Numbered from the stretch's first letter, positions 14,943 to 60,053 are shown. The stretch is DNA of 64,000 bases from Minisyncoccia bacterium (GCA_041742965.1 JBGTNQ010000004.1:70241-134240), one strand, 5' to 3'. The notes: a model not told the origin generated them from the sequence alone. Made by a program: numbers and translations.

Positions 14943-15986
14943 CTAAAACTCTAAACTTATTGGTTGGCCCTGTGAAGAGAGACCCACGCTCGTTTGAACA
15001 TTTAGAAAAATGTTCAATGAATAATTACTCGTTTTTATATTTCTATATATATTCTCTACTTGTGAAAATGATGGAAAATGCCTTAAATTTATTTTTATAG
15101 TTTTTCCATCTGTTGATGGAATATTCTCTATAAGACCTAGTTCAGAAAATACTCTGTTATTTTCTTTGTCAAAATTTTCTCCTTTTATAACTATAATCTG
15201 TTCGCTAGAAATACTTAGGGAGCTCGGCTCAACAGACATCACCTTCGGCAAATCTTTTGTTTTTTCTGAAACAGAAAAATAATTTCCAAAAGAGCGGTCA
15301 AAACTATTTCCATTTTTATTTAGAATAGACAAATTATATGAACCGTAAGGAAGCCACTCCGGAACCGTAAAAGAAAGTGTTGCCCCATCTTTACTAGAGA
15401 CAGAATCGATTGTTTTGGTGACCCCAAGAAAGTAAATAGAGTTATCAGAGTAATCAAAATTACTACCAAAGACAGTTACATCTGACCCCCTAGACACATT
15501 GTATCTAGAAAGTCCCAAAACCTTTGGGGCTGAATTATTTGTGGTTATGTTCGGAACGCTCATATCCAAAGCAGATATAGTAGATTGTGGAACCGCACCG
15601 TCTGGAATATCAGACGCAACTAAATTTATACTATTCTGAGGATTTGATACTACAGACTCAGAAATCTTATTTAACTTCGCCAAGGTGTATTGGCCAATAA
15701 AGCCCGTGCCCTTGTATAAACCTATAGGGAAAAGAACCTCTGGGGCATAAAGTTCTTGAAATTTAATAACTGCTGTTCTGGTCATTTGACCGAAGTAGTT
15801 TGTTTCACTCCCAAGGGAACCGGGGCCAGATACCGCCACACGAGTAATAGGATTTTTATTCAAAATCCTCTGAAGCTCTCTGACATCCTCACCCTGAAGA
15901 CCAAATGATAAATTCCTATCGAAAACGAGAGCGCTAACAAATAGTGGCAAAAATATGGTAATTATTAAAAAAAAAGACTTGTTCAT
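14943..15986 (-). CDS. secreted protein with peptidoglycan-binding (PG_binding_1-like) domain
   Basis: 347 aa; signal peptide, then GEDVRELQRILNK...TAVIKFQ as in PG-binding domain 1. Confidence 0.5.
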   Translation of the reverse strand: MNKSFFLIITIFLPLFVSALVFDRNLSFGLQGEDVRELQRILNKNPITRVAVSGPGSLGSETNYFGQMTRTAVIKFQELYAPEVLFPIGLYKGTGFIGQYTLAKLNKISESVVSNPQNSINLVASDIPDGAVPQSTISALDMSVPNITTNNSAPKVLGLSRYNVSRGSDVTVFGSNFDYSDNSIYFLGVTKTIDSVSSKDGATLSFTVPEWLPYGSYNLSILNKNGNSFDRSFGNYFSVSEKTKDLPKVMSVEPSSLSISSEQIIVIKGENFDKENNRVFSELGLIENIPSTDGKTIKINLRHFPSFSQVENIYRNIKTSNYSLNIFLNVQTSVGLSSQGQPISLEF

Positions 15987-16092: not shown

Positions 16093-17001
16093 TTGAATCT
16101 TCCTTCTAAAAAGCTTTTTTTGTTTGCTATGCCCATTATTATAATAATCGGAGTTTTTGTGTTGGTGAAAGAACCAACTACGGACAGCGGGCAACAGACA
16201 ACGAAGGCGGGTCCTGAGGTAGTGGATATACAAAACTCAATCATAAATGAAGTGGATACAGACGGAGATGGTTTGAAAGATTGGGAAGAATTAATATGGA
16301 AAACGGATCCAAATAATCCTAAAACTCATGAGGGTTACGAGAATGACTCTGCCTATGTTAGTGCACAACTCGCATTGATGAAAAATAATCCAAGCGTGTA
16401 TGCCGGAATGGGCCCGATTGAAACCACGGAAGACTTGAGCAAACAACTATTTGAAGAATATCTGTTATTAAAACAGACCGGCAATCTAACTCCGGATGAC
16501 ATAGCGAGATTAACCCAAAGGATCAGGCTGAATATAGAGTCTTCGACGGATATTTCTTTTTATTCTGCTGATAAGTTAAAAACTTTCCCATCATCAGACA
16601 AACAAAAACTCCAAAAATACGCAGACGAATTGTCTAATACTATCAACCAATATACAACTCTGTACATGCAACAAGTACAGAACAGCAACATAACAAACAC
16701 CACTGTATTAAATGAAATTGTAGGCCTGGGTGCCGATATCTACCTAAGACTGTCTGAATCAATTATGAAAATGGAAGTTCCGATTGAATTGGCGTCGACT
16801 CATACACAATACGCAAACGATCTCAGAAAAAGCTCCGTTTCATTGGACGGTTTGCTCAGCCAATCAAAAGACCCACTCCAATCAATAGTAGGCCTACAAA
16901 AACACACCGACGCACAAAATTCGAGACAGGGAACAGCGAATACGATAAGTAATTTTTTAATTCAAAATGGTATAATGTCTTTTAATATGTTAGCGCTCTA
17001 A
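16093..17001 (+). CDS. membrane-anchored hypothetical protein with a DxDGDG calcium-binding-like motif
   Basis: 302 aa; N-terminal TM helix; VDTDGDGLKDWEEL motif. Confidence 0.4.
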   Translation: MNLPSKKLFLFAMPIIIIIGVFVLVKEPTTDSGQQTTKAGPEVVDIQNSIINEVDTDGDGLKDWEELIWKTDPNNPKTHEGYENDSAYVSAQLALMKNNPSVYAGMGPIETTEDLSKQLFEEYLLLKQTGNLTPDDIARLTQRIRLNIESSTDISFYSADKLKTFPSSDKQKLQKYADELSNTINQYTTLYMQQVQNSNITNTTVLNEIVGLGADIYLRLSESIMKMEVPIELASTHTQYANDLRKSSVSLDGLLSQSKDPLQSIVGLQKHTDAQNSRQGTANTISNFLIQNGIMSFNMLAL

Positions 17002-17002
17002 T

Positions 17003-18613
17003 ATGAAAAAAATCAATCTGTTATTTAAGAAAATTTTTGCTGTAATTCTCCTCCTGTCTTTCATAATCCCGGTAAGTTTTGTGTCAGCGTTGGGTCCAAT
17101 TATACCAGGAATTGCAGGGGATATACTTCCTCCAGTTCCAACATCAGATGCAGCCATAAGAAACAAAGAAGTCGGTATAACAATATTAGGATTCACAATT
17201 CCGGGAGTCACACTAGATGGACTAATGATACTTTTCGTTCGAGAAATGATTGAAAAGCTTTCCGATGCCACTGTTGACTGGATAAATAACAGAGATACAG
17301 ATGAGGGGGGACCGGCCTTTGCAGTAGACCTTGAGGGATTTCTAAAAACCACGACGGATAAAATTGCAGGAAATATCATAGAAGGAGCTGGCCTTGGAGC
17401 GCTGTGTAGCCCTTTTCAAAACCAAGTAAGAGAAGCTTTGAGATTGTCTTATTCTTTCAACAAAAGAAACGCCGATGATATTGAACCTAGCTGTACACTC
17501 TCTCAAGTGACAAACAATATTGAAGGATTTTTTGCCGGAGACTTTATAGGGGGCGGAGGCTGGGACTCTTGGTTCGTGGTGAGCCAAGACCCAAACGGCA
17601 ACCCTTTTTCTGCAACACTCACCACCAAAGGCATAGTGGCTAGAAAGGTTTCTGAAGAATTAAATGTGGAAGACAAAAATTTAGCTTGGAGTGACGGGTT
17701 TTTCAACAGCAGAGACTGTATTAGATACCAAACATCAGATCCCACTGTTTGTGCCGAATTCGGTCCAACAAAAACCCCAGGAACACTTATAGAGGGGCAA
17801 TTGCAAAAAGTTTTGGGATCCGAAATAGACCAATTAAACTTGGCAGATGAGTTTGATGAAATCCTTGCTGCGTTGGCCGGAATGCTTATGAATAGCGTAT
17901 TTAATCGTGGAGGAATAATTGATAACAGTAGTTTATCGGGAAGAGCCACGACTGGTGGTATTAATAATCGACCCCTTGTCGGTGGATGTACGCCAAATAA
18001 GGCATCCACCGTTATTACTGATGCAGAAACGGTAATATGGGCTTATGTTGGCGGACAGAATGTATCTCTCGTTTGGAATGGAGAAGGAATAAGTGGATTA
18101 ACAGATAGAAGTGTCAGTGTCGTATACACAACCCCCGGAACAAAAACAGTTACTGTGCAAGTGACGAGACTAGATGCTAATGGAGCCCCTGTAGGGGCAC
18201 CAGAAACTATACAATGTAGTCAATCTGTGAGAGTTGATAAATTTGCACCACTTGCAGTAAGTTGTGCCATAAGTTCCCCACAGGTGAAAATTGGCGAAAT
18301 TGGCACTTGGACAATAACAATAACCGGCGGATCTGGAAGTATAGCCAATGTAATCTTGGGTGGCGATGTCCTGCACGATATCAACCCCCAACCCTATGAC
18401 GTTAAAATATTGCCTTGGCCAGTCCAAACTCAAGCAAACGGCGTAACAACATTGGTTTACAACATTAGATACTTTTTCCCTATTCCAGTTCTTGCTGACG
18501 GAGGAAATAGGATTGGCTCAAGAACATTTACTCTAACTGTCATAGACGCTGACACATCAGTTCCTGTATTAAATGAGTTTCGATGTCCATTCCAAATTGC
18601 AATTGTTCCATAA
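17003..18613 (+). CDS. large secreted hypothetical protein (first gene of the T4SS-like operon)
   Basis: 536 aa; cleavable-looking signal peptide, Gly/Thr-rich beta-type C-terminal half. Confidence 0.45.
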   Translation: MKKINLLFKKIFAVILLLSFIIPVSFVSALGPIIPGIAGDILPPVPTSDAAIRNKEVGITILGFTIPGVTLDGLMILFVREMIEKLSDATVDWINNRDTDEGGPAFAVDLEGFLKTTTDKIAGNIIEGAGLGALCSPFQNQVREALRLSYSFNKRNADDIEPSCTLSQVTNNIEGFFAGDFIGGGGWDSWFVVSQDPNGNPFSATLTTKGIVARKVSEELNVEDKNLAWSDGFFNSRDCIRYQTSDPTVCAEFGPTKTPGTLIEGQLQKVLGSEIDQLNLADEFDEILAALAGMLMNSVFNRGGIIDNSSLSGRATTGGINNRPLVGGCTPNKASTVITDAETVIWAYVGGQNVSLVWNGEGISGLTDRSVSVVYTTPGTKTVTVQVTRLDANGAPVGAPETIQCSQSVRVDKFAPLAVSCAISSPQVKIGEIGTWTITITGGSGSIANVILGGDVLHDINPQPYDVKILPWPVQTQANGVTTLVYNIRYFFPIPVLADGGNRIGSRTFTLTVIDADTSVPVLNEFRCPFQIAIVP

Positions 18614-18620
18614 AAATTAA

Positions 18621-21059
18621 ATGCTTCGAGGATTTTTACAAAAAAAGAAGTTTGTGTTTGTCGGACTTGGGGTATTGATATTACTTCTAACTTTCTTTTT
18701 TATTGCGCCAGATAAAGCAAGAGCTGGGGAAGTAAGTGGTTCTTGCACTGGAGTGGTTGGCAACGACGGTGCCTGCTATCCGTTAGGAAGTCCAATAAAC
18801 TCATCGAATTGCGAATCTGCCTTTGGTGGTTCTTGGAATGACAGAAATAGTGTTTGTAGAATTAGCGGTATGGTTGTCACGGTGGTTGAGGCGGGACAAC
18901 TAGGTTCTGACAGTCGAAGTGGAGTTGGGGTCACACCTGTTCAAGATCCTGGTGTATGTGGTATTCCAGTGTTTGGCAAGGTTATGTGTGGGATTGCGGC
19001 TTCACTCCTAATGCTACCACTTGGCTTTGCTTCTTTTCTCCTATTTGTCGCCGGCTCACTTCTTGATTTTGTTCTTCAATATACGGTCGTCTCTATGTCA
19101 AAAAATATCGGCTCAGTTTCGGGTATTAATATTGCCTGGGCTGTTATTCGTGACCTTGTAAATATATCCTTTATATTTATTCTCCTTTATTCTGCAATAA
19201 ATCTGATAATAGGTAGGGGCGGGGATATGAAAAGGGTGATTGTTGGAGTGGTGATGGCGGCGATACTTGTAAACTTCAGTTTGTTTTTTGCGAAAGTAAT
19301 CATAGACGCGTCCAACACAGTAGCGCTAACCTTTTATAACACAACCATACAAAGCTGTGACCCCGGTGGTAAAGCGAGACTTTCTGCCTGTTTTTCAAAC
19401 CCTCTTGGTGTATCAACTATTTTTAGCCCTACTGATAATCAACAATTTTTACAAGATATAGACTACAACTTCTTGAAGGTTATTGTTATATCGCTCGGCG
19501 GTTCAATATTTCTTCTAATCACTACATTTGTCTTCTTGGCAATAGCGGTAATGTTCATAATCCGTTTTATAACTATTATTTTTCTATTAATACTTTCGCC
19601 AATAATGGTGATGGGTAGCATAATTCCAAAGCTCTCCGAACATACGAACAAATGGTGGAAAGATATGACAGAACAGGCAATATTCGCTCCAATATTTATG
19701 GTGATGATATGGGTTGTTCTGTCTATATTAAATAGCCCTGGATTTATCACTAATAACCTGTCTCTCGTTGCTGGAGACCAACGCCTCTCTGCTCTATACG
19801 AGGGTGATTTTCCTGGATCACAGGCCTTACTCTTAAATTTTGTGGTTGCTATAGCGCTGATTATAGGTACACTCACAATTTCAAAAAGTTTTTCTTCAAA
19901 AGGTGGAGCTATGGGTGGAAAATTTGCTGGAGCTGTACTGGGTGGAGGGCTTGGACTAGCAGGAAGAAAGACTCTTGGAAGTTTTAGTCGTAAAGTTGCC
20001 GATAGTGAAACCTTGAAAGCGCAGGCAGCAAATGAGGGTGGAAAATATTCTAGACTCCAACAGATGAAAGCAAAAGCCTATTTGAAAACAGCTCAAGGTG
20101 GCGCAAAGTCTAGCTTTGATCTTCGGGGGGCAAATACCGGCTTAAGCAAAACACTCGGAGCAGGTTCTGCCACTGGTAAAGGAGGTTATGATGAAGCGGT
20201 CAAAAAGAAAACTGAAGCGTACAAAAAATTTGGAGAATCTTTAAAACCTTCTGATATCATTGTAGAAGACGCTGAACGAGAACTAAAGGCAGCAGAGAGT
20301 AGCGGTGATCCAGTAAGAATAGCTAAAGCCAAAGCAAAACTGTCAAATCTCAAAGGAAACAAAAAGGATGTTGACGCAGAAATAGCGAGACTAGAGGAGG
20401 AGAGGAAAACTGTATCTAATTCCAGAAAAGCAGCGACTAGCGAGGCAACGGCACTCAAGGAAGCCGAAACAAAGCTAGAGTCAGCAAAAAATGCCGAAAG
20501 GTCAGCTGAAGACACTTACAGAAGACTCGAAATTGAAGCTGACACCGCGGTTGGTACCGCTCGTATTGAAAAAATTAGGCAAGTTGTTTTGGCTAAAAAC
20601 AACTTGGACGCAGCAAAATTAGAAACTGGGGACGCCAGAAGAGCCCTTGAATCAGCGAAAGAGGTTCATAACGCAGTGAGTGCTAATATTGATAATGAGA
20701 CAACAAGAACTTACGATGGAATGAAAAGGGCGGCCAGAGACGCAGAAATTAAAAGTGCTGGAGAAAAAAGAAAGGCCGGTTATGCTGATGCTATTACGAA
20801 CCCCGGCTCATCCTTAAATGTATTGGGATATGACCTTGGTGTTGGGGTAAACAGGGTCGGTTTTGTTGGACCAATCTCAAGAGAGAGGAGGCAAGCAGCG
20901 ATTGAACTTAGAAAAACAGAAAATAAGAAAGACAAGTTAGCAAAAGCAGTTAAAGAATACACAGAAGAAGAGAGCCCAACACCGACCACAGCAGACCCTT
21001 CAACCACACAATCCGCCACCCCGCCGCCAGCAACGCCTACGCCGCCAGCAACACCATAA
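18621..21059 (+). CDS. VirB6/TrbL-like polytopic membrane protein with a C-terminal coiled-coil and Pro/Thr-rich tail
   Basis: 812 aa; Cys-rich secreted N-domain, at least 6 predicted TM helices (300-600), then about 330 aa Ala/Lys/Glu-rich coiled-coil ending PTPTTADPSTTQSATPPPATPTPPATP. Confidence 0.45.
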   Translation: MLRGFLQKKKFVFVGLGVLILLLTFFFIAPDKARAGEVSGSCTGVVGNDGACYPLGSPINSSNCESAFGGSWNDRNSVCRISGMVVTVVEAGQLGSDSRSGVGVTPVQDPGVCGIPVFGKVMCGIAASLLMLPLGFASFLLFVAGSLLDFVLQYTVVSMSKNIGSVSGINIAWAVIRDLVNISFIFILLYSAINLIIGRGGDMKRVIVGVVMAAILVNFSLFFAKVIIDASNTVALTFYNTTIQSCDPGGKARLSACFSNPLGVSTIFSPTDNQQFLQDIDYNFLKVIVISLGGSIFLLITTFVFLAIAVMFIIRFITIIFLLILSPIMVMGSIIPKLSEHTNKWWKDMTEQAIFAPIFMVMIWVVLSILNSPGFITNNLSLVAGDQRLSALYEGDFPGSQALLLNFVVAIALIIGTLTISKSFSSKGGAMGGKFAGAVLGGGLGLAGRKTLGSFSRKVADSETLKAQAANEGGKYSRLQQMKAKAYLKTAQGGAKSSFDLRGANTGLSKTLGAGSATGKGGYDEAVKKKTEAYKKFGESLKPSDIIVEDAERELKAAESSGDPVRIAKAKAKLSNLKGNKKDVDAEIARLEEERKTVSNSRKAATSEATALKEAETKLESAKNAERSAEDTYRRLEIEADTAVGTARIEKIRQVVLAKNNLDAAKLETGDARRALESAKEVHNAVSANIDNETTRTYDGMKRAARDAEIKSAGEKRKAGYADAITNPGSSLNVLGYDLGVGVNRVGFVGPISRERRQAAIELRKTENKKDKLAKAVKEYTEEESPTPTTADPSTTQSATPPPATPTPPATP

Positions 21060-21066
21060 AAATACA

Positions 21067-21621
21067 ATGGACACTAACCAAATAATAAAAGAACAGCTTT
21101 CATTGGCTCCCAAAGAGCTTAAAGCTTATATTTCTGAAGAAAAGTGGTCTCTTGCAACACAGGAAGTTGCAAGAAACATTAACTGTTCTCAGGAACAGAC
21201 TGAGGCCATACAAAACGAGGTAATAATTACTCTTCTTGGATTAGACTTAAGGACCAATATTCCTAACAACTTAAAAGAAGTAGGGTTAAATGATTTACAG
21301 ATAAGACAGATTGTCAGTGAGTTGGATGAAAAGGTTTTTAAACCTGTCATTGAATTTTTACCAACAGAAACAGAAGCGGAAAATCCGGAAAATCTTATAC
21401 CCCAAGGTGACCATTTGATTGAGGACTCAGCGGGAAACAAAGATAATGTTTTGCCACCCATTCCACAAAAAACAACGCTAGAAAAGAAAATCGGACCAAT
21501 AATGAATGGCTCACCAGAAATTGACGCTAATTGGGAAAAGAGAAAAGAAACCCTAGGAGAACACCAAGTGGTGACAGAGACATACAAGGGGAGTGACCCG
21601 TACAGAGAACCTCTTAGTTAG
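21067..21621 (+). CDS. hypothetical acidic protein (operon member)
   Basis: 184-aa ORF translationally coupled to the upstream gene. Confidence 0.4.
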   Translation: MDTNQIIKEQLSLAPKELKAYISEEKWSLATQEVARNINCSQEQTEAIQNEVIITLLGLDLRTNIPNNLKEVGLNDLQIRQIVSELDEKVFKPVIEFLPTETEAENPENLIPQGDHLIEDSAGNKDNVLPPIPQKTTLEKKIGPIMNGSPEIDANWEKRKETLGEHQVVTETYKGSDPYREPLS

Positions 21622-21633
21622 TTTTAAGTTTAG

Positions 21634-22037
21634 AGTTTTAAGTTTTTAGTAAATGCAAGAACAAAGATCAAAATCTTACAAAGATTTGGTGGTTTGGAAA
21701 AAATCTTGTGATTTGGTTATTTTGATTTATAAACTATGTTCTAATTTCCCGAAAGAAGAGTTGTACGGCATTACATCTCAAATAAAAAGATCAGCGATTT
21801 CTATTCCATCCAATATTGCAGAAGGGAGTAGGCGAGGAACCAAAAAAGATTTTCATCACTTTTTGAACATCTCACTCGGATCTGCCGCTGAATTGGAGAC
21901 TCAGATTGAAATATCTAAAAAATTATCATTTGGAGAAAAAAGAGACTATAATGAAACGGAATCAATATTATTAGAGGTGACAAAAATGCTGTATAAACTG
22001 TCATCAACTCTAAACTGACTACTAAAAACTTAAAACT
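21634..22037. mobile_element. four-helix-bundle gene cassette bounded by a 17-bp perfect inverted repeat AGTTTTAAGTTTTTAGT (21634-21650) / ACTAAAAACTTAAAACT (22021-22037)
   Basis: IRs are exact reverse complements; adjacent tandem AGTTTTAAGTTT(A) units extend the stem imperfectly to about 30 bp. Confidence 0.55.
21653..22018 (+). CDS. four-helix-bundle protein (23S rRNA intervening-sequence protein family)
   Basis: 121 aa; YKDLVVWKKS...FPKEELYGITSQIKRSAISIPSNIAEGS...FLNISLGSAAELETQ matches the TIGR02436-type family. Confidence 0.7.
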   Translation: MQEQRSKSYKDLVVWKKSCDLVILIYKLCSNFPKEELYGITSQIKRSAISIPSNIAEGSRRGTKKDFHHFLNISLGSAAELETQIEISKKLSFGEKRDYNETESILLEVTKMLYKLSSTLN

Positions 22038-22041
22038 AATT

Positions 22042-22476
22042 ATGCGCTTTCAAGTACCACAATTCATAGAAGTAGAGGACAAAATATTCGGACCGCTAAC
22101 ATTTAAGCAGTTCATATACCTTGCCGGAGCAGGCGGTATAGCGGTGGCGGCGTTTAGTTTTTTACCAAAATTTTTCGCACTTCTCATAAGCGCCCCCGTA
22201 GTTATACTCGGGCTAGCTTTGGCTTTTTATAAGATAAACAACAGGCCTTTTATATTTATGGTTGAATCTTTTTTCAAATATTTCAGCAAGGAAAGATTAT
22301 ATATTTGGAAAAAGGCAGACAAAAAACCAATAAGAACAAAAGACGGGGACACAGCTAACCCAATGGTCTATATTCCAAAACTTTCTAACAGCAAACTAAA
22401 AGATTTGTCTTGGGAACTTGGAGTAAAAAAGACAGGACTTCAGGAAGAAGAAAAGGTTGGAGAAGAAAAGGAATAG
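22042..22476 (+). CDS. PrgI-family (VirB3-like) T4SS membrane protein
   Basis: 144 aa; MRFQVPQFIEVEDKIFGPLTFKQFIYLAGAGG N-terminus followed by two TM helices as in PrgI. Confidence 0.55.
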   Translation: MRFQVPQFIEVEDKIFGPLTFKQFIYLAGAGGIAVAAFSFLPKFFALLISAPVVILGLALAFYKINNRPFIFMVESFFKYFSKERLYIWKKADKKPIRTKDGDTANPMVYIPKLSNSKLKDLSWELGVKKTGLQEEEKVGEEKE

Positions 22477-22579
22477 GGAATGAGGAATAGGAAAAAATAA
22501 TCGATAAAATATTACTGTTTTCCACTTTTCTAAATAAATTTCATTATTCCTTATTCATTATTCGGTGTAGAATATAACC

Positions 22580-23218
22580 ATGGCTATAAAAGCGAGGGCT
22601 ACACAGGAGTTTGTACCAATCCAAGAAGTTCGTGACGGTGTCGTAGTGATGAAAGATGGCAGTATGCGAGCCATTATCATAGCTTCGTCCCTTAACTTTT
22701 CTCTAAAATCAGAGGATGAAAAAACCGCTGTTCTTCTACAGTTTCAGGATTTTCTAAATTCTTTAGATTTTCCGATACAGATTTTTGTTGAATCCAGACG
22801 ACTAGACATTAGACCTTATCTGGCACTACTTGAAGAACAGAAAAAAATACAGACGAATGACCTCATGAAAATACAGGTTGAGGAGTATATAGGTTTTGTT
22901 AGAACCTTTACTGAAAATAACAATATAATGACAAAAAGTTTCTTTGTGGTTATACCTTACTCACCAGCAATGCTTCAGGGGAAAACGGGGTCATTGAGTA
23001 GTCTGTTAGGAAAGAAAAATACTTCTAATGAGAGAGAATCTGTGGGCCTTCTCTTTGAAGAAAATCGAACTCAGTTAGAGCAAAGATTGTCTGTAGTAGA
23101 ACAAGGTCTCATGAGGTGTGGAGTTCGTGTCCAGAGATTAGGAAACGATGAAGTTATTGAGCTTTTCTATAAATTATTTAATCCGGGAGAAACAGAAAGA
23201 CCGATTGTTCAGGAGTAA
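22580..23218 (+). CDS. VirB4/TrsE-like N-terminal domain protein (encoded as a separate gene)
   Basis: 212 aa; QEFVPIQEVRDGVVVMKDGSMRAIIIASSLNFSLKSEDEK resembles the VirB4 N-domain. Confidence 0.5.
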   Translation: MAIKARATQEFVPIQEVRDGVVVMKDGSMRAIIIASSLNFSLKSEDEKTAVLLQFQDFLNSLDFPIQIFVESRRLDIRPYLALLEEQKKIQTNDLMKIQVEEYIGFVRTFTENNNIMTKSFFVVIPYSPAMLQGKTGSLSSLLGKKNTSNERESVGLLFEENRTQLEQRLSVVEQGLMRCGVRVQRLGNDEVIELFYKLFNPGETERPIVQE

Positions 23219-23228
23219 TTTCACAAAA

Positions 23229-25049
23229 ATGTCTATCTTTAATTTTTTAAAAGGGAAAAAAGGGGTGGCCGAAGAGGCGCAGGGAGTTTCTATCCTTCCC
23301 CATGAAATATACGAAGCGAATACCTTAGATTTAAAGGATATTATTGCCCCCAGTGCCCTAAAAGTTAGCCCGAAAGACCTAAATCTCGGAGAAAAAATAG
23401 TCAGAAGCTTTTTTGTCATTTCTTATCCAAGGTTTTTGGCAGAAAGCTGGTTTGCCCCAATCATAAACTTAGATAGAGTTTTTGATATTTCCATCTTTGT
23501 CCATCCGGTTGAAACTTCTCGCGTCTTAAAACAATTCCAAAAGAAAGTAGCTGAAGTTCAAAGTCAAATACACGAAAGAGAAGCCAAGGGGTTGGTAAGA
23601 GATCCAATGCTTGATGTTGCATATCAAGACCTTGAAAATCTCCGAGACAACCTACAGCAGGCTCAAGAAAAGCTATTTGATGTTGGTCTATATATATCTA
23701 TATACGCTGACAGTGTAGGAGAACTAGATAAAATAGAGTCAGAGATAAAATCTATTCTTGAATCAAAACTTGTATATATAAAGCCGGCCCTTTTCCAACA
23801 AGAAGAAGGCTTCAGAAGTATAGTGCCTCTAGGAACAGATTTGCTAGAAGTTCACTCAAAACTGAATTCTTCTCCGCTATCAAGTTTGTTCCCATTTATC
23901 TCTTTTGACCTAACCCAAGAAAAGGGAATCCTCTATGGTATCAACAGACACAACTCAAGCCTTGTGCTCTTTGACCGCTTTTCACTTGAAAACTACAACT
24001 CCATAACCTTTGCAAAATCTGGGTCTGGGAAATCATATGCCACAAAATTAGAGATACTGAGAACCCTTATGTTTGATACTGACGTTATGGTTATTGACCC
24101 AGAACAAGAGTATGAATATATGTCTGAGGCGGTGGGAGGAAGGTCTCTGAAAATTTCTCTAAATTCTGAGCATCACATAAACCCGTTTGAACTTCCAATT
24201 CCCGGAGAAGATGAATCTGCTGCCAATGTGCTTCGTTCAAATATCATAAACCTCGTTGGTCTATTTAGATTAATGTTGGGAGGACTTACATCCGAAGAAG
24301 ACGCCATCATAGACAGGGCAATCACCGAGACATATGCCCTGAAAGACATCACCGCTGAATCAGATTTTAAAAATATCGAGCCCCCACTGCTTTCTGACTT
24401 TGAGCTTGTTCTCTCTGGACTTGAGGGAGGAGAATCCTTGGCTCAGAGACTAACAAAATACACCAGAGGCACTTGGGCAGGGTTCATAAACAGGCCTACA
24501 AATATAGACATAAATAAAAAATTTGTAGTCTTCTCTTTGCGTGATATGGAGGATGAACTCAAGCCGATTGCCATGTATATTGTCACGCACTATATATGGA
24601 GTGCCATAAGAAAAGAGAAGAAGAAAAGACTTTTGGTCATAGATGAAGCTTGGTGGATGATGAAGTCTGAAGACACGGCTTCTTTCCTGCTAAACCTCGC
24701 TAAGCGAGGTAGGAAATATGGTCTAGGACTTGCTACTATCACTCAAGATGTGGATGACTTTCTTAAGTCTCCATATGGAACACCTATTATCACGAACTCT
24801 TCGATACAAATTCTTCTAAAACAGTCCCCGACAACCATTGATAAACTTCAACAGGTCTTTAATCTGACAGACGAGGAGAAATATCTACTATTAGAATCTG
24901 GAGTGGGAGAAGGAATATTTTTTGCAGGACTCAAACATGTGGCAATCAAAATAGAAGCATCGTACACGGAAGACCAGATTATTACATCAGACCCATTTCA
25001 AATTCTGGCTATTCAGAAAGCCAAGAAAGAATTAAGTGACTCTACATAA
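23229..25049 (+). CDS. VirB4/TraE-like T4SS ATPase (C-terminal ATPase part)
   Basis: Own start MSIFNF preceded by AGGAG; Walker A AKSGSGKS, Walker B LLVIDEAWWMM; ORF track extends upstream to 23148 in this frame. Confidence 0.7.
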   Translation: MSIFNFLKGKKGVAEEAQGVSILPHEIYEANTLDLKDIIAPSALKVSPKDLNLGEKIVRSFFVISYPRFLAESWFAPIINLDRVFDISIFVHPVETSRVLKQFQKKVAEVQSQIHEREAKGLVRDPMLDVAYQDLENLRDNLQQAQEKLFDVGLYISIYADSVGELDKIESEIKSILESKLVYIKPALFQQEEGFRSIVPLGTDLLEVHSKLNSSPLSSLFPFISFDLTQEKGILYGINRHNSSLVLFDRFSLENYNSITFAKSGSGKSYATKLEILRTLMFDTDVMVIDPEQEYEYMSEAVGGRSLKISLNSEHHINPFELPIPGEDESAANVLRSNIINLVGLFRLMLGGLTSEEDAIIDRAITETYALKDITAESDFKNIEPPLLSDFELVLSGLEGGESLAQRLTKYTRGTWAGFINRPTNIDINKKFVVFSLRDMEDELKPIAMYIVTHYIWSAIRKEKKKRLLVIDEAWWMMKSEDTASFLLNLAKRGRKYGLGLATITQDVDDFLKSPYGTPIITNSSIQILLKQSPTTIDKLQQVFNLTDEEKYLLLESGVGEGIFFAGLKHVAIKIEASYTEDQIITSDPFQILAIQKAKKELSDST

Positions 25050-25055
25050 TAAATT

Positions 25056-25619
25056 ATGAGCAACCTGCTCGATTTAAAACAAAGGAAAGAAACCGAGGGG
25101 GGAAATCCTCAAAATATTAGGAGGATTGACCGCCCCCTGTCTTCGAATCAAAGGGAGTGGGTAGAGGATGAGGAAGAGATGACTCAAAAGCAAAACCTAT
25201 ACCAAAATAATTATACTGAAAATCGGAGTGGGCCCATAGAAAGCGAAACTGAGGAAGAGGGTATACCCAACACAACGCTTGGGTTAATGATTGGGACGGC
25301 CATTTTTTTTGACTTAACACAAGTTTTACTTGCATTTGTTGTTATGGACTGGCTTGTGAGCTGGTTTGCTTTTCTTACTTTCTGGCTTTGGTTCAAATTT
25401 CACAACAAAAGCTTCCTTAATCCCAAAAGATTGCCGGCAATAGGGGTGGGGGTGGTTATAGAAATGTTCCCGCTATTAGCAGCCCTTCCTGGATGGACAA
25501 TAGCTGTTATTTTGCTTGTTGGTATAGAAAGAGCGGAAAAAACAGCCAGAAAACTTTTGGGAGAAGGAACTTTGGGAAACAAGGCGATATCAAAAATCTC
25601 AAGATTTAGTAAGAAATAA
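25056..25619 (+). CDS. hypothetical membrane protein (acidic N-terminus, 3 TM helices)
   Basis: 187-aa ORF in the operon. Confidence 0.4.
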   Translation: MSNLLDLKQRKETEGGNPQNIRRIDRPLSSNQREWVEDEEEMTQKQNLYQNNYTENRSGPIESETEEEGIPNTTLGLMIGTAIFFDLTQVLLAFVVMDWLVSWFAFLTFWLWFKFHNKSFLNPKRLPAIGVGVVIEMFPLLAALPGWTIAVILLVGIERAEKTARKLLGEGTLGNKAISKISRFSKK

Positions 25620-25679
25620 GTTTGTGGAAATGTGACTTTGTCTGTTTTTTCTGAAGATAGGTGAGGTATAATAATAAAC

Positions 25680-26672
25680 ATGAGAACCTCTGTTTTTCTA
25701 ACAATACTTTCTTTTGTAATTTTTGGTTTACCGTTTTTTGCCATCGCTCAAATCTCTCCAAACGATTTGTCAAGCAATTTAACCGTTAGAATTATCCCCG
25801 AATTTCCAAAACCAAATGAATTTGTAAGTATCAGGATTAGTAGCTCATCATACAACCTAGACTCAGCATCAATAATTTGGACAGCAAATGGCCGAGAAGT
25901 GGCACGTGGCATAGGTCTAAAAGAGGCAACTTTGTTTTCTGGGGACATTGGTGAAACGACCAAACTTTTGATTTCGGTAAATCTGTTGAATGGGTCTTCA
26001 TTTGAAAGGGAAGTTGTAATCAGACCATCTTCGGTTAGCTTTGTGTGGGAAGCAAAAACATATACTCCTCCTTTTTACAAGGGGAAGTCCCTTTTCACCC
26101 CAGAATCTGAACTAGTGATTGTGGCCGTGCCAAATATGGTGGGCCCGAATGGTCCTATTAACCCAAATGATATTATTTATAAGTGGACCAGAAATAGACA
26201 GGTGTTAAATAATCAATCTGGGTATGGAAAACAAAGCCTATCCGTAATTGGTTCTTTTTGGGGAAGGGACGAGGTTGTCTCTGTAGAAGTAACCTCGCGT
26301 GAAGGTTCAATTAGCTCTAAAGGGGAACTGACCATACACCCGCAAAAACCAAAAGTATTTATATACGAAGACAGCCCCCTCTTGGGCATTCTCTTTAACA
26401 GAGCGGTTGGAATATTTAATATAAATCAGAACAATGAAGTATCATTTTTTGCCGCCCCCTTCTATTTTTCTTCTAATTCTTTGTCGGGCGGAAAAACACA
26501 ATATAACTGGAGTATGAATAGAAACCCGATTCAAGGAAATGAAAATGGAAACTCTATTACCTTCAGAGCAGAATCTGGCCAGTCTGGTACATCTCTGGTT
26601 GGAATCAAAATAGAACAAGACGGAAAAACCGACCAGCGTGGCGAAACACAGTTCTCTATAAACTTTAAATAA
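25680..26672 (+). CDS. secreted hypothetical protein
   Basis: 330 aa; signal peptide MRTSVFLTILSFVIFGLPFFAIAQ. Confidence 0.45.
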   Translation: MRTSVFLTILSFVIFGLPFFAIAQISPNDLSSNLTVRIIPEFPKPNEFVSIRISSSSYNLDSASIIWTANGREVARGIGLKEATLFSGDIGETTKLLISVNLLNGSSFEREVVIRPSSVSFVWEAKTYTPPFYKGKSLFTPESELVIVAVPNMVGPNGPINPNDIIYKWTRNRQVLNNQSGYGKQSLSVIGSFWGRDEVVSVEVTSREGSISSKGELTIHPQKPKVFIYEDSPLLGILFNRAVGIFNINQNNEVSFFAAPFYFSSNSLSGGKTQYNWSMNRNPIQGNENGNSITFRAESGQSGTSLVGIKIEQDGKTDQRGETQFSINFK

Positions 26673-27641
26673 ATGTCTTCAAAAACCTTAAAACAAAAGA
26701 GCGTGCTCGCTGTATTAGTCGGTTTCGTTTTTTGCTTTATGGTGGCGCCATCCACCCTTATGGCCGTCTATGAATACCAACCCTTAGCACCCATACCTGG
26801 AACAACGGTTGGAAACTGTGATCCGACAGTGGACCCGATGAATCCAAACTGCCGAATAGAAACGAGTTCTTATATACCAGCAATCGTAAAAATAATAATC
26901 CAAATAGCAGGAGGGTTAGCGGTCATTATGATAGTCATTGGCGGAATTCAATACATCACAACTGATGCCATACAAGGCAAAGAGGAGGGAAAAGATAAAA
27001 TACAAAAATCTGTATATGGACTACTGCTGGTCATTGCTAGTTTCATATTACTACAAACAATAAACCCGAAAACACTGGAACTAGAGCTAAGCATCACCCC
27101 AATAACGCCTATACAGATGGGGACAGGCACAAGCACAATCACTAGTGCGACAACAACTCCGACTGGCAACAATTCGCCTTGGCCCGACGACAGTGCGGAA
27201 AGAGCACAGCTTCAAGCAATAAGGGGGGTCTCCATAAACAGACCGGGAACCTGTACATTTGTGGGCGAACAATCGTGTACAAGTGTATATGGACTTGGAG
27301 CGAGGAGGCTGAATGGCATTACGGCATTATCAACTGCTTGTGGTGTTCAAAATTGCAGTATAGTCATAACCGGAGGAACGGAGTATTGGTTGCACGGAAA
27401 CAGAAGTACTTCAATACTTGCAAACAACACCTCGCACAAACCCGAAGCAAATGGAGGAAGGGCCTTGGATTTGTCAAAAAATAGTAATATTTTAAATAAT
27501 GTTATACAGAGCTTTCCTGAAATAGTGGGTGGAAGTAGTTGTGCTAATGGAAAGGCCTATCAAGGTCCTAATGGGGCTATATATGTTGATGAGGTTGGAT
27601 CGCTGGCATTTACTGGGGCACATTGGCATGTTTGCTTTTAA
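26673..27641 (+). CDS. TrbC/VirB2-like pilin domain fused to a LAS/M15-like zinc peptidase domain
   Basis: 322 aa; signal peptide, two hydrophobic helices (IIQIAGGLAVIMIVIGGIQYITT; VYGLLLVIASFILLQTI) split by a charged loop as in VirB2 pilins; C-terminal SHKPEANGGRALD and HWH motifs resemble the H..D / HxH zinc ligands of M15/LAS peptidases. Confidence 0.4.
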   Translation: MSSKTLKQKSVLAVLVGFVFCFMVAPSTLMAVYEYQPLAPIPGTTVGNCDPTVDPMNPNCRIETSSYIPAIVKIIIQIAGGLAVIMIVIGGIQYITTDAIQGKEEGKDKIQKSVYGLLLVIASFILLQTINPKTLELELSITPITPIQMGTGTSTITSATTTPTGNNSPWPDDSAERAQLQAIRGVSINRPGTCTFVGEQSCTSVYGLGARRLNGITALSTACGVQNCSIVITGGTEYWLHGNRSTSILANNTSHKPEANGGRALDLSKNSNILNNVIQSFPEIVGGSSCANGKAYQGPNGAIYVDEVGSLAFTGAHWHVCF

Positions 27642-27646
27642 ATAAA

Positions 27647-28879
27647 ATGAATAAAAAAATTCTAATCATCGCAGGAATTGTAACAATTTTAATAATCCTT
27701 GGGGGATTATTTATTGTCCTGTCAAAAAACACTGAGAGTGGTAGTGGTGGTTTTTGGGGAGGACTACCTTTTGGCAGTTCTGAAAATAGTAGTATACCGC
27801 CACCACAAACAAGTCCTGGCACAGTAGATCAAGTTGTGTTAACGGAACTTGATCCAAAAATAAGAGATGAAAACGGTCTCAAAAAAATAAGCGATGTTCC
27901 TGTCTCTGGCTCAACTTTTCTTCAATCTTCAACTTCTACTGAGCACAATGTTCGTTTTATAGAAAGAGCAACTGGTCACATATATGATGCAAATCTAGAA
28001 ACAGGAAACATCACTAGAGTTTCAAATACAACCATACCAAAAATTGAATTTGCTCTGTGGAGAGAGGGCGGTAATTCTTTCCTAGCTCAAACGATTGATT
28101 CTGGAATCCTCAAAACTAAAATTTATGAGATTGTAGAACCCACCGGGACAACAACCAGTGAAACTTTCGCAAGAATTGATGAATTTTCTCTTCAGGACAA
28201 TATTTTTTCTCCTACAATATCCTCACAAAATCAAATCTTCTACCTCGCACGAGGAATTAGTGGCATTGAAGGTTTCGTGGCAAATTCGCGAGGAGAAAAC
28301 CCTCGGAAAGTGTGGGAATTCCCAACATCGGAGTGGCTCTCACAAACTGCCACACAAAACATGATTGCTCTAACCAGTAAGGCGAGCAATTCTCTGGATG
28401 GGCTTTTGTATTTTGTTAACACCACGAATGGCGCGACATCTCTAATTATTTCTAATATTCCAGGATTAACGACTAAAGTATCGCCGTCTGGAGAAATTAT
28501 TCTATACAGTGGGTCTGAAGGAAGTTCTTCAGAAAATTATTTTTATAACCGCGTAGAAAAAACAGGATACAAAGCGCCGTTTGATACCCTTCCTGAAAAG
28601 TGCGTATGGACAGAAAATGAAACGGAATTATACTGCTTCCAACCAAAGACGCTCTTTTCGAATTTACCAGACTCTTGGTACCAAGGAGTAGTGAGTTTCA
28701 ATGACAGACTCTGGCAAACCAATGTGTCTACTGGGGAAACACGGCTGGTATCAGAGCTCCAAACATTATCTGGTCAATATGTTGATGCCATAAACCCGGC
28801 AATATCTTCGGATGGGAAATATATCTTATTTACAAACAAAAAAGATCTTACTTTGTGGGCAGTACCAACAGGGAAATAG
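27647..28879 (+). CDS. membrane-anchored beta-propeller-like (TolB/PD40-like) hypothetical protein
   Basis: Start taken at MNKKIL; N-terminal TM helix; C-terminal SSDGKYILFT PD40-like repeat signature. Confidence 0.35.
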   Translation: MNKKILIIAGIVTILIILGGLFIVLSKNTESGSGGFWGGLPFGSSENSSIPPPQTSPGTVDQVVLTELDPKIRDENGLKKISDVPVSGSTFLQSSTSTEHNVRFIERATGHIYDANLETGNITRVSNTTIPKIEFALWREGGNSFLAQTIDSGILKTKIYEIVEPTGTTTSETFARIDEFSLQDNIFSPTISSQNQIFYLARGISGIEGFVANSRGENPRKVWEFPTSEWLSQTATQNMIALTSKASNSLDGLLYFVNTTNGATSLIISNIPGLTTKVSPSGEIILYSGSEGSSSENYFYNRVEKTGYKAPFDTLPEKCVWTENETELYCFQPKTLFSNLPDSWYQGVVSFNDRLWQTNVSTGETRLVSELQTLSGQYVDAINPAISSDGKYILFTNKKDLTLWAVPTGK

Positions 28880-30181: not shown

Positions 30182-30417
30182 GAGAAGCATTGTATATTAG
30201 TTTTGTTTTTTTTCAAGGGCGCATTGATTTTTAAATAACTTCAAACACACTATTCATAAAAATAATTTTTTATTTTGCAATAGACTTAAATGATAGTTTA
30301 TACACAAATAATCAACATTTTATCAACATAATTTCTGTTTTCTTTCAAGTTTTTTGACTTTGATTTAGGTATATACTACTTAACACAACCTTTATCCCTT
30401 TACCTCTTAAAACAACA
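30182..30417. other. AT-rich rpmH/dnaA intergenic region with DnaA-box-like 9-mers (candidate oriC part 1)
   Basis: TTATCAACA at about 30320, TTATCCCTT at about 30393, long A/T tracts. Confidence 0.4.
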
Positions 30418-31773: not shown

Positions 31774-32000
31774 AAGATGTTTATAACTCAAGGAAAACCC
31801 TGTGAACAAATGGCCCAAAACTCACCGTGTTATCAACACCCTCGAAACAGAAACTTCAATAGCCAACACTTTATGAAAAGCTATCCACAAAAAGAATGCT
31901 TAGCGAATGCCAAAAACACCTTATTATTCTTGGGTTTTTTAGCTTATCAACATTACCAACAGGCCTTATAATAATAATAATTTATATATAATAAAAACCT
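31774..32000. other. dnaA/dnaN intergenic region with a DnaA-box cluster (candidate oriC part 2)
   Basis: TGTTATCAACA (31838), CTATCCACA (31875), TTATCAACA (31939), followed by an AT-rich stretch. Confidence 0.45.
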
Positions 32001-59971: not shown

Positions 59972-60053
59972 GCCCGGGTGGAGAAATTGGTAGACTTACT
60001 ACCTTGAGGTGGTAGCGCCGAAAGGCATGCAGGTTCAAATCCTGTCCCGGGCA
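59972..60053 (+). tRNA. tRNA-Leu (anticodon GAG)
   Basis: GCCCGGGTGGAGAAATTGGTAGACTTACTACCTTGAGGTGGTAGCGCCGAAAGGCATGCAGGTTCAAATCCTGTCCCGGGCA; long variable arm. Confidence 0.8.

What the first reader, a model, noticed from the sequence alone, without database searches (positions are those of the whole stretch)
17003..28879. Compact Gram-positive-style T4SS/conjugation-like operon (PrgI, two-gene VirB4, VirB6-like, VirB2-like pilin) in an otherwise housekeeping-dense, reduced genome
Eleven co-directional, tightly packed genes encode: secreted proteins; a VirB6/TrbL-like polytopic protein with a 330-aa coiled-coil tail; a PrgI/VirB3-like protein; VirB4 encoded as two adjacent genes; further membrane and secreted proteins; and a VirB2/TrbC-like pilin fused to a peptidase-like domain. 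No relaxase, coupling protein (VirD4) or oriT is visible, so this looks like a minimal VirB3/4/6/2 core, more likely DNA uptake or a contact-dependent surface apparatus than classic conjugation. It coexists with a separate type IV pilus set (pilB, pilMNO) in the same window. The exact gene set, the peptidase fusion and the IVS-type insertion appear atypical.
Basis: partly seen in the sequence, partly recalled or inferred. Interest (0 to 1): 0.8.

Follow-up and report, generated by a model that had tools for sequence, protein, structure and literature searches.

The report
Patescibacterial type IV secretion gene cluster

Summary
Eleven tightly packed + strand genes (17003-28879), plus a twelfth at 16093, include PrgI/VirB3, a VirB4 split into TrsD-like and ATPase genes, an extended VirB6-like protein and a VirB2-like pilin. 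The window has no relaxase or coupling protein.

The genome is a Paceibacteria/Parcubacteria (CPR) MAG. Gene content, the missing relaxase and the position (ksgA ... yidC-rnpA-dnaA-dnaN) match the "Patescibacteria T4SS" described by Wang 2023 and Quinonero-Coronel 2025. The order is colinear in 47 of 49 related species that have all core genes. VirB4 (78-90% identity) is better conserved than DnaA. The "two-gene VirB4" is real: a stop codon separates the genes in 77/77 relatives.

The gene set is therefore typical, not atypical.

Points beyond the papers I read:
- The pilin carries a conserved ~160-aa Cys/His-rich C-terminal domain found almost only on T4SS pilins. Its peptidase nature could not be confirmed.
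- Four accessory envelope proteins are conserved in this lineage and have no known relatives.
- The four-helix-bundle "IVS protein" gene is an optional stem-flanked cassette that sits at different intergenic sites in relatives.

Verdict: already known system, function open, modest interest.

The parts
16093..17001 (+). Probable first gene of the operon. N-terminally membrane-anchored protein with a bacterial TSP3 (calcium-binding) repeat. Variable among relatives.
   Evidence: PF18884 TSP3_bac, 7.9e-7. One N-terminal hydrophobic segment. Its stop lies 1 nt before the next gene. Found at the same position in 21/80 related loci at 21-35% identity.
17003..18613 (+). Conserved accessory envelope protein (536 aa). 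Signal/anchor sequence, a Cys-containing N-terminal domain and an Ig/PKD-like C-terminal part. No known family.
   Evidence: Only a sub-threshold PKD hit. 8 Cys and an N-terminal hydrophobic segment. Present in 56/80 loci at the same position. A profile search of the PDB found nothing.
18621..21059 (+). Extended VirB6/TrbL-like polytopic membrane protein. Cys-rich N-terminal loop, helical membrane core (aa ~118-440), then a ~330-aa coiled-coil tail ending in a Pro/Thr-rich stretch.
   Evidence: 102 homologues. 6 of 10 tested pass the Pfam TrbL/VirB6 gathering score. AF2 core pLDDT >90. The Foldseek PDB top 7 are all R388 TrwI/VirB6: prob 0.96-1.0, E 0.025-0.2, TM 0.37-0.49. There is no direct Pfam hit and no PDB sequence hit.
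21067..21621 (+). Small soluble protein (184 aa), poorly conserved, role unknown.
   Evidence: No Pfam or NCBIfam hit. No hydrophobic segment. Detected in only 9/80 loci.
21634..22037 (+). IVS-like cassette: a four-helix-bundle '23S rRNA intervening sequence protein' ORF (21653-22018) bracketed by a perfect 18-nt inverted repeat. An optional insertion, not a T4SS component.
   Evidence: PF05635, 1.5e-39; TIGR02436, 3.9e-38. The inverted repeat is 21634-21651 / 22020-22037 and is longer than in any of 200 shuffles. The RNA fold pairs the two arms. Present in 12/80 relatives, at differing intergenic sites.
22042..22476 (+). PrgI/VirB3-like small membrane protein with a hydrophobic hairpin. Expected to tether VirB4 to the membrane.
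   Evidence: PF12666 PrgI, 1.1e-11, above the cut-off. Hydrophobic segments at aa 23-66. Present in 76/80 loci, median 54% identity.
22580..23218 (+). TrsD-like protein: the N-terminal domain of VirB4 encoded as a separate gene.
   Evidence: NF041427 TrsD/TraD, 2.8e-6. Aligns to positions 2-119 of CD1110 VirB4 and 102-280 of VirB4_plasma. It is a separate ORF in 77/77 relatives, in a different reading frame in 62. Median 63% identity.
23229..25049 (+). VirB4 ATPase (606 aa) of the monoderm MPF-FATA type, with intact Walker A (AKSGSGKS) and Walker B (LLVIDE).
   Evidence: NF045971, 1.5e-113, 380.6 bits against a cut-off of 325. PF19044 and AAA_10. PDB 4AG5, 4e-41; TrwK, 4.6e-8. The start at 23229 comes from relatives. 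Motifs were read from the sequence. 78-90% identity to 80 species representatives.
25056..25619 (+). Polytopic membrane protein (187 aa) with an acidic cytoplasmic N-terminus and ~4 hydrophobic helices. Accessory, unknown family.
   Evidence: No family hit. Hydrophobic segments at aa 74-159. Same position in 31/80 loci.
25680..26672 (+). Conserved secreted protein (330 aa), probably beta-rich/Ig-like. Accessory, unknown family.
   Evidence: N-terminal signal-like segment. Present in 74/80 loci with 96% median coverage. No Pfam or PDB sequence hit.
26673..27641 (+). VirB2/TrbC-like T4SS pilin hairpin (aa ~64-130), fused through a low-confidence linker to a conserved ~160-aa Cys/His-rich extracellular C-terminal domain (aa 160-322) of unassigned fold.
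   Evidence: PF18895, 2.4e-8. AF2 pLDDT 83.7, C-terminal domain mostly >90. About 50 homologues span the full length. Invariant or near-invariant residues: E237, W239, H241, H254, D266, E307, H317, W318, H319 and cysteines. In the searches run, the domain occurs almost only together with PF18895.
27647..28879 (+). Membrane-anchored protein (410 aa), possibly a beta-propeller. Last gene of the cluster.
   Evidence: Weak PD40 hit, 0.0047. N-terminal hydrophobic segment. The start at 27647 is as called in a public assembly. Present in 62/80 loci. No PDB sequence hit.

Best explanation
[quoted passage not shown] It derives from the monoderm (MPF-FATA) conjugation machinery.

Shown here:
- A split VirB4 (TrsD-like N-domain plus ATPase), PrgI/VirB3, an extended VirB6 and a VirB2-like pilin lie in one tightly packed gene string with conserved order.
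- The string sits between ksgA and yidC-rnpA-dnaA-dnaN.
- There is no relaxase or coupling protein in 64 kb.

Inferred mechanism:
- PrgI and the TrsD-like protein dock the VirB4 hexamer onto the VirB6 membrane platform.
- VirB4 uses ATP to extract the pilin from the membrane and polymerise it, or hand it on, into a short pilus or stalk.
- The lineage-specific secreted and anchored proteins (17003, 25056, 25680, 27647) carry this structure through the cell wall.
- The pilin's extracellular C-terminal domain, possibly a metal-dependent hydrolase, acts on peptidoglycan or another surface polymer of the cell itself or its host.
- The apparatus serves contact-dependent exchange with a host cell rather than plasmid conjugation. 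Neither the substrate nor the direction of transport is known.
For: Taxon: the 80 best of more than 550 VirB4 relatives are all Patescibacteria MAGs, labelled Zambryskibacteria, Paceibacterota, Parcubacteria or Taylorbacteria, with some labelled Saccharibacteria.

Synteny:
- 47 of 49 loci that have all seven core genes are colinear.
- dnaA lies a median 5.2 kb after virB4.

Conservation:
- VirB4 has a median 81% identity against DnaA 61% and UvrD 57% in the same loci. The loci were chosen by VirB4 similarity, which biases this comparison.
- Walker motifs are intact.
- GC content of the cluster (0.37-0.41) equals the background.
- TrsD and VirB4 are separate genes in 77/77 relatives.

No relaxase or VirD4 was found among the window's ORFs.

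Literature:
- The same component set, the lack of a relaxase and the position near dnaA/dnaN/rnpA/ksgA are reported for 2,417 of 3,035 Patescibacteria genomes (PMC12102498).
- The homologous Southlakia cluster, including its pilins, is essential for epibiotic growth, whereas ComEC is dispensable (PMC10633639; PMC12857230).

That VirB4 with VirB3/VirB6/VirB2 suffices for pilus biogenesis, while substrate transfer needs a coupling protein, is established T4SS knowledge. This is my own knowledge and was not tested here.
Against: - No experiment exists for any Paceibacteria system. The function is described as 'completely unknown' even in Saccharibacteria (PMC11665869).
- A coupling protein or relaxase could lie elsewhere in the genome. 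VirD4 homologues are common in Patescibacteria but far from virB4 (PMC12102498).
- No VirB8-like or VirB1-like protein was recognised in the cluster.
- The VirB6 assignment rests on weak Foldseek E-values (0.025-0.2) and on transitive Pfam hits.
- The hydrolase idea for the pilin C-terminal domain has no statistical support.
- A 190-aa globular fusion may prevent pilin polymerisation. In that case the hairpin would be only a membrane anchor.
- Co-transcription was not shown.
Confidence: 0.85

Rival explanations
1. It is the mating-pair-formation module of an integrated conjugative element (or its relic). It would export DNA with a relaxase and coupling protein encoded elsewhere.
For: - VirB4 is closest to the CD1110/CTn2 conjugative family, and to the VirB4 C-terminal domain 4AG5 among solved structures; that 4AG5 comes from a Firmicute is from my own knowledge, the search output gives no organism.
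- TrsD and PrgI are components of pGO1 and pCF10.
- A few Patescibacteria do carry relaxases.
- VirD4 homologues are usually distant from virB4.
Against: - There is no relaxase, coupling protein or integrase in or beside the cluster.
- GC content matches the chromosome.
- The same housekeeping flanks and gene order occur in dozens of species. This indicates vertical inheritance rather than mobility.
- VirB4 is more conserved than DnaA.
- Only 109 relaxases were found in 3,035 genomes.
Confidence: 0.04
2. It is a dedicated import machine, functionally like H. pylori ComB or the archaeal Ced system. It would pull DNA, nucleotides or other macromolecules from the host into the nutrient-dependent cell.
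For: - CPR cells lack nucleotide and amino-acid synthesis.
- ComEC is dispensable while the T4SS is essential in Southlakia.
- The authors of PMC12102498 favour import.
- VirB4 gives a weak partial match to the CedB DNA-import ATPase model (2.3e-10, far below the cut-off).
- There is no coupling protein, as in ComB.
Against: - No DNA-binding or translocase partner (a ComEC-like or CedA-like channel) is in the cluster.
- The CedB similarity covers only the shared P-loop region.
- There is no experimental evidence for import in any Patescibacterium.
Confidence: 0.25
3. It exports protein effectors or toxins into or onto the host without a coupling protein, as the Bordetella Ptl and Brucella VirB systems do. 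Sec-exported neighbours would be its cargo or its surface parts.
For: - Several cluster proteins carry signal sequences.
- T4SSs that lack a coupling protein exist.
- Effector delivery is the speculation quoted in PMC11665869 and PMC10633639.
Against: - No recognisable toxin or effector domains are in the cluster.
- The secreted proteins are conserved and syntenic like structural parts, not variable like effectors.
Confidence: 0.2
4. The pilin-like protein is not a polymerising pilin. It would be a membrane-anchored cell-wall enzyme that merely uses a VirB2-like hairpin as its anchor, and the machine would build no pilus.
For: - A ~160-aa globular domain follows the hairpin.
- Relatives add further Ig/FN3 domains before the hairpin.
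- One relative carries a genuine VanY/LdcB peptidase in the same position.
- Monoderm T4SSs normally lack pili.
Against: - The hairpin matches the T4SS pilin family above its cut-off.
- The pilins of the Southlakia system are essential.
- Both termini of conjugative pilins face the outside of the filament, so a fusion could be displayed. This last point is my own knowledge and was not tested.
Confidence: 0.3

Closest known systems
T4SS of Ca. Southlakia epibionticum ML1 (SEML1_0006-0019), and the Patescibacteria-clade T4SS surveyed by Quinonero-Coronel et al. 2025
   Same: Chromosomal and origin-proximal. VirB4 plus a separate TrsD, PrgI/VirB3, VirB6 and VirB2-like pilin. No relaxase or coupling protein adjacent. 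Monoderm envelope.
   Different: - This locus has one pilin gene rather than an array of six.
- The pilin carries a conserved extra C-terminal domain.
- The peptidase and lysozyme genes downstream of virB4 in Southlakia are replaced by lineage-specific proteins of unknown family (25056, 25680, 27647).
- An IVS-like cassette is inserted.
MPF-FATA conjugative T4SSs of Firmicutes: pGO1/pSK41 Trs (TrsC, TrsD, TrsE), pCF10 Prg/Pcf, C. difficile CTn2 (CD1110)
   Same: VirB4 passes the CD1110-family cut-off. The TrsD-like split of the VirB4 N-domain is as in pGO1. A PrgI-type VirB3 is present.
   Different: - No relaxase and no PcfC/VirD4 coupling protein.
- No PrgK/TrsG-type VirB1 hydrolase, no PrgL/PrgD VirB8-like proteins and no PrgB adhesin were detected.
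- It has a VirB2-like pilin, which Gram-positive systems lack.
- It is not on a mobile element.
R388 Trw / Agrobacterium VirB (MPF-T) systems
   Same: The VirB6-like membrane core is the best structural match (TrwI). The VirB4 ATPase domain is homologous to TrwK. A VirB2/TrbC-type pilin hairpin is present.
   Different: No outer-membrane core (VirB7/9/10), no VirB5, VirB8 or VirB11, and no VirD4. The VirB6 carries a 330-aa coiled-coil tail ('extended VirB6'; PMC12857230).
T4SS-derived DNA importers (H. pylori ComB, Sulfolobales Ced), and coupling-protein-less exporters (Bordetella Ptl)
   Same: They operate without a relaxase, and ComB and Ptl operate without a coupling protein. They show that a VirB4 machine can be repurposed.
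   Different: No homology beyond the VirB4 P-loop was found (CedB model far below its cut-off). The partner proteins of those systems are absent.

Membership tests
Patescibacteria-clade T4SS (MPF-FATA-derived; PMC12102498) | VirB4 ATPase of MPF-FATA type | tested here: met
   NF045971 CD1110 family, 380.6 bits against a cut-off of 325. PDB 4AG5, 4e-41. Walker A and B motifs intact.
Patescibacteria-clade T4SS (MPF-FATA-derived; PMC12102498) | VirB4 falls inside the monophyletic Patescibacteria VirB4 clade | tested here: inconclusive
   The 80 best of more than 550 relatives are all Patescibacteria MAGs at 78-90% identity. No tree with outgroups was built.
Patescibacteria-clade T4SS (MPF-FATA-derived; PMC12102498) | Separate TrsD-like gene (VirB4 N-domain) next to virB4 | tested here: met
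   NF041427, 2.8e-6, and tiling of the VirB4 models. A stop codon separates the two genes in 77/77 relatives.
Patescibacteria-clade T4SS (MPF-FATA-derived; PMC12102498) | PrgI/VirB3 homologue near virB4 | tested here: met
   PF12666, 45.6 bits against a cut-off of 27. It lies 104 nt upstream of the TrsD-like gene.
Patescibacteria-clade T4SS (MPF-FATA-derived; PMC12102498) | VirB6/TrbL homologue near virB4 | tested here: met
   The window protein itself is below Pfam detection. 6 of 10 homologues pass PF04610. The top 7 PDB fold matches are TrwI/VirB6.
Patescibacteria-clade T4SS (MPF-FATA-derived; PMC12102498) | VirB2-like pilin near virB4 | tested here: met
   PF18895, 34.3 bits against a cut-off of 26.6. 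It is three genes downstream of virB4.
Patescibacteria-clade T4SS (MPF-FATA-derived; PMC12102498) | No relaxase or coupling protein associated; chromosomal position near dnaA/dnaN/rnpA/ksgA | tested here: met
   None found in the 64-kb window. KsgA lies upstream and YidC-RnpA-DnaA-DnaN downstream. DnaA-box-like sites cluster at 31830-31952. The rest of the genome was not available.
Patescibacteria-clade T4SS (MPF-FATA-derived; PMC12102498) | Required for host-dependent growth | not testable with these tools
   Shown only for Southlakia, by Tn-seq (PMC10633639).
Conjugative T4SS / integrative conjugative element | Relaxase with oriT, and a VirD4/TcpA-type coupling protein | tested here: not met
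   No such Pfam domains occur in any large ORF of the window. This cannot be excluded for the rest of the genome.
Conjugative T4SS / integrative conjugative element | Mobile-element context: integrase, att sites, atypical composition, patchy distribution | tested here: not met
   GC content equals the background. The housekeeping flanks are identical across species. The only recombinases lie 11 kb or more away (5065-5982 and 60104-61735).
LAS-type zinc peptidase (M15/VanY/LdcB) for the pilin C-terminal domain | Significant sequence or profile similarity to M15/VanY models or structures | tested here: not met
   No Pfam, PHROG or PDB-sequence hit. hhalign against P0182 gave prob 1.7%. Against a 7-sequence VanY alignment it gave prob 0.3%, E 0.19.
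LAS-type zinc peptidase (M15/VanY/LdcB) for the pilin C-terminal domain | H-x(n)-D ... E ... H-x-H metal-site motif in conserved order; Hedgehog/DD-peptidase fold | tested here: inconclusive
   H254...D266, E307 and H317-W-H319 are invariant or nearly so. They align co-linearly with the SEH / AxD / EPWH motifs of a VanY-bearing pilin in MAFFT and in the relaxed hhalign path. Fold searches with the whole model returned only helical-hairpin matches.
23S rRNA intervening sequence (IVS) element, for 21634-22037 | PF05635 ORF enclosed by a long stem | tested here: met
   PF05635, 1.5e-39. Perfect 18-nt inverted repeat. The fold pairs the two arms. In relatives, 6 of 7 cassettes are flanked by 20-46-nt imperfect repeats.
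23S rRNA intervening sequence (IVS) element, for 21634-22037 | Located inside a 23S (or 16S) rRNA gene and excised by RNase III | tested here: not met
   It lies between two protein-coding genes. There is no rRNA in the window. Cleavage cannot be tested with these tools.

The most novel reading that the evidence does not exclude
In Paceibacteria the T4SS pilin is a bifunctional protein. Its VirB2-like hairpin is polymerised, or held at the machine, by VirB4. A conserved and so far undescribed extracellular metal-dependent hydrolase domain rides on it. That domain cuts the peptidoglycan or surface polymer of the bacterium itself or of its host. It would thereby replace the missing VirB1 and open the host envelope for exchange. 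This would be an enzyme-decorated conjugative-type pilus in a monoderm.
Probability: 0.25. Interest if true: 0.6.

Novelty: already known. Interest (0 to 1): 0.3.

Why it matters
Patescibacteria are a large share of bacterial diversity and appear to live off other cells. This T4SS is one of the few machines they all keep, and in the one species tested it is essential. A recent review calls it 'perhaps the most exciting newcomer' to the T4SS superfamily (PMC12857230).

This window adds no new system. It gives a clean, complete Paceibacteria example and a short list of testable parts:
- four conserved accessory envelope proteins with no known relatives;
- a pilin with a conserved enzyme-like C-terminal domain.

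These are the natural candidates for what contacts or opens the host.

Tried and rejected
- **Frameshift in VirB4.** I asked whether the two-gene VirB4 was a frameshift or assembly error. Rejected: a stop codon separates the genes in 77/77 relatives, which are in different frames in 62, and an IVP gene lies between them in two loci.
- **VirB6 by sequence.** There is no direct Pfam hit. A profile search of PDB sequences returned only coiled-coil noise. Transitive Pfam hits and the fold search resolved the question.
- **Pilin C-terminal domain.** The following all gave nothing significant, so 'peptidase' stays a motif-level guess:
  - a PDB sequence profile;
  - Pfam and PHROGs scans of 24 members;
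  - hhalign against a VanY-bearing pilin;
  - hhalign against a 7-sequence VanY alignment built from plasmid and phage records.
- **Accessory proteins and TrsD.** PDB profile searches for 17003, 25680, 27647 and TrsD found no informative hit.
- **Operon boundaries.** Promoter and terminator scans were at chance level.
- **Mobile element.** Rejected on composition and synteny.
- **Serine-recombinase element.** No att repeat was found within the window.
- **Tool errors.** A Pfam scan of alignment A1 failed because it was too large. One alignment attempt failed on an in-frame stop codon.


Full report
**Observation.**
- Gaps between consecutive genes are 0-103 nt.
- A twelfth co-directional gene (16093-17001) ends 1 nt before the first. 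The gene upstream of that one is divergent.
- Two start codons need correction:
  - VirB4 begins at 23229. Relatives align from that methionine, which removes the apparent overlap with the preceding gene.
  - The last gene begins at ATG 27647, as called in a public assembly.

**Identity of the parts.**
- PrgI: 22042-22476 matches PF12666 above its cut-off.
- Split VirB4: 22580-23218 matches the TrsD/TraD family and the N-terminal ~120-280 positions of full-length VirB4 models. 23229-25049 matches the remainder: CD1110-family VirB4, 380.6 bits against a cut-off of 325. Together the two products tile one VirB4.
- VirB4 has Walker A (AKSGSGKS) and Walker B (LLVIDE) motifs. Its closest solved relative is the VirB4 C-terminal domain 4AG5 (4e-41), followed by R388 TrwK.
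- Pilin: 26673-27641 matches T4SS_pilin PF18895 at aa 70-129.
- VirB6-like: 18621-21059 has no direct family hit. However:
  - six of ten of its homologues pass the Pfam TrbL/VirB6 cut-off;
  - its AlphaFold model has a membrane core with pLDDT >90;
  - the seven best PDB matches of that model are all TrwI/VirB6 chains of the R388 T4SS, with weak E-values (0.025-0.2) but probabilities of 0.96-1.0.
- With its 330-aa coiled-coil tail this protein fits the 'extended VirB6' type described in PMC12857230.
- 21653-22018 is a 23S_rRNA_IVP four-helix-bundle protein.
- The remaining five products (17003, 21067, 25056, 25680, 27647) have no family or PDB-sequence match. Four of them carry signal or membrane segments.

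**Context.**
- The flanks are housekeeping genes: UvrD and KsgA upstream, YidC, RnpA, DnaA and DnaN downstream.
- DnaA-box-like sites cluster in the dnaA-dnaN spacer.
- None of the window's large ORFs is a relaxase or a coupling protein.
- PilB, PilM and PilN lie elsewhere in the window.
- GC content of the cluster equals the background.

**Relatives.** A scan of one genome per species found more than 550 VirB4 relatives. The best 80 (78-90% identity) are all Patescibacteria MAGs, labelled Zambryskibacteria, Paceibacterota, Parcubacteria or Taylorbacteria, with some labelled Saccharibacteria.
- The gene order in these loci is the same: ksgA, the 17003-type gene, VirB6, PrgI, TrsD, VirB4, the 25056, 25680, pilin and 27647 types, then yidC, rnpA, dnaA and dnaN.
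- 47 of 49 loci that have all seven core genes are colinear. dnaA lies a median 5.2 kb after virB4.
- TrsD and VirB4 are separate ORFs in 77/77 loci, so the split is ancestral and not an error.
- Median identities in the same loci are VirB4 81%, TrsD 63%, DnaA 61%, UvrD 57%, PrgI 54% and about 30% for the envelope proteins. The loci were chosen by VirB4 similarity, which inflates its rank somewhat.
- This pattern indicates vertical inheritance under strong constraint, not a mobile element.

**What is known.** The system is published.
- Wang et al. 2023 (PMC10633639) found an unusual Gram-positive-like T4SS with pilins, and without coupling protein or relaxase, in Southlakia epibionticum. They showed by Tn-seq that it is essential.
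- Quinonero-Coronel et al. 2025 (PMC12102498) found VirB4 in 2,417 of 3,035 Patescibacteria genomes. These form a monophyletic clade nested in MPF-FATA.
  - TrsD, PrgI/VirB3, VirB6 and VirB2-like pilins lie nearby, and relaxases are almost absent.
  - In Paceibacteria and Microgenomatia the cluster lies near dnaA, dnaN, rnpA, ksgA and rpmH.
- A 2025 review lists the system as a new T4SS type (PMC12857230).
- The function is stated to be unknown. Effector export or import of host material is speculated (PMC11665869).
- Every headline point of the finding therefore matches the published description. The gene set is typical rather than atypical.

**Mechanism (inferred).**
- PrgI and TrsD dock VirB4 to the VirB6 platform.
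- VirB4 extracts the pilin from the membrane and builds a short pilus or stalk.
- The conserved secreted and anchored proteins carry this structure through the wall.
- The absence of a coupling protein and a relaxase argues against conjugation and for a pilus-building, host-contact role.
- Import, export and an anchor-only pilin remain open rivals.

**Details I did not find in the papers read.**
1. The pilin's C-terminal ~160 residues form a confidently modelled domain.
   - It conserves Cys, E237, H241, H254, D266, E307 and H317-W-H319.
   - Searches found 187 clusters at 90% identity and 354 representatives at 50% identity. Almost every protein whose domains were listed or checked also has the pilin hairpin, sometimes with extra N-terminal Ig/FN3 domains.
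   - One relative instead carries a genuine VanY/LdcB peptidase at that position.
   - The motif order resembles LAS zinc peptidases, but every statistical test failed.
2. The IVP gene is bracketed by a perfect 18-nt inverted repeat.
   - It is present in only 12/80 relatives.
   - It sits at different intergenic sites of the same operon, including between TrsD and VirB4.
   - It is usually flanked by imperfect inverted repeats of unrelated sequence.
   - It looks like an rRNA-type IVS cassette living in an mRNA operon. IVP ORFs in CPR rRNA insertions are already known (PMC11270868).

**Verdict.** This is a real, correctly interpreted and already described system. Interest is modest. The pilin C-terminal domain and the lineage-specific accessory proteins are the parts worth follow-up.

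Noticed in passing
window 21634-22037; also L006, L013, L014, L022, L038, L053, L068: The four-helix-bundle '23S rRNA IVS protein' ORF is bracketed by a perfect 18-nt inverted repeat, and RNA folding pairs the two arms. In relatives such ORFs occur in only 12/80 loci. They sit at different intergenic sites of the same T4SS operon, twice between TrsD and VirB4. Six of seven checked are flanked by 20-46-nt imperfect inverted repeats of unrelated, simple-repeat-like sequence. This looks like an rRNA-type IVS cassette (a possible RNase III site) inserted in an mRNA operon.
   Followed up: partly
window 26673-27641 (aa 160-322) and homologues P0104-P0382: An orphan domain of ~160 aa, rich in Cys and His (motifs GGTEYWLH, H..PGG..VDL, YVxE, HWHVCY), was found in 354 50%-identity clusters. 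Almost every hit whose domains were listed or checked also has the T4SS_pilin hairpin. No Pfam, PHROG or PDB relative was detected.
   Followed up: yes
window 60104-61735 (-), tRNA-Leu/His 59972-60160, 60-64 kb: A large serine recombinase gene ends inside or abutting tRNA-His. GC content rises from ~0.38 to ~0.45 from there to the window end. This is probably an integrated element that continues past the window. No att repeat was found within the window.
   Followed up: partly
window 30298-30328 and 31830-31952: DnaA-box-like 9-mers (at most 1 mismatch) cluster upstream of dnaA (2 sites) and in the dnaA-dnaN spacer (3 sites), so oriC is probably here. The T4SS operon, uvrD and ksgA are transcribed towards it, head-on to a leftward replication fork. 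GC skew follows the coding strand and shows no minimum at dnaA.
   Followed up: partly
window 10469-11425 (-): A LysM plus Peptidase_M23 protein lies 4.7 kb upstream of the operon's first gene (16093). The 2025 survey reports domains of this type in VirB1-like proteins of Patescibacteria. It is a candidate wall hydrolase for the system.
   Followed up: no
window 14525-14926 (-) and 14943-15986 (-): Two surface proteins are transcribed divergently from the operon: a small Cys-containing secreted protein and a TIG/Ig plus PG_binding_1 protein. They recur at the same place in some relatives (10 and 18 of 80 loci) and may belong functionally to the envelope apparatus.
   Followed up: no
loci L001-L080 against the window: Within the same set of genomes VirB4 (median 81% identity) and TrsD (63%) are as conserved as, or more conserved than, DnaA (61%), UvrD (57%) and DnaN (50%). 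The extracellular parts are at about 30%. The loci were selected by VirB4 similarity, so the ranking is biased.
   Followed up: partly
window 5065-5982 (-): A XerC/D-like tyrosine recombinase (Phage_integrase with SAM-like N-domain). It is probably the chromosome dimer resolvase rather than an element integrase.
   Followed up: no
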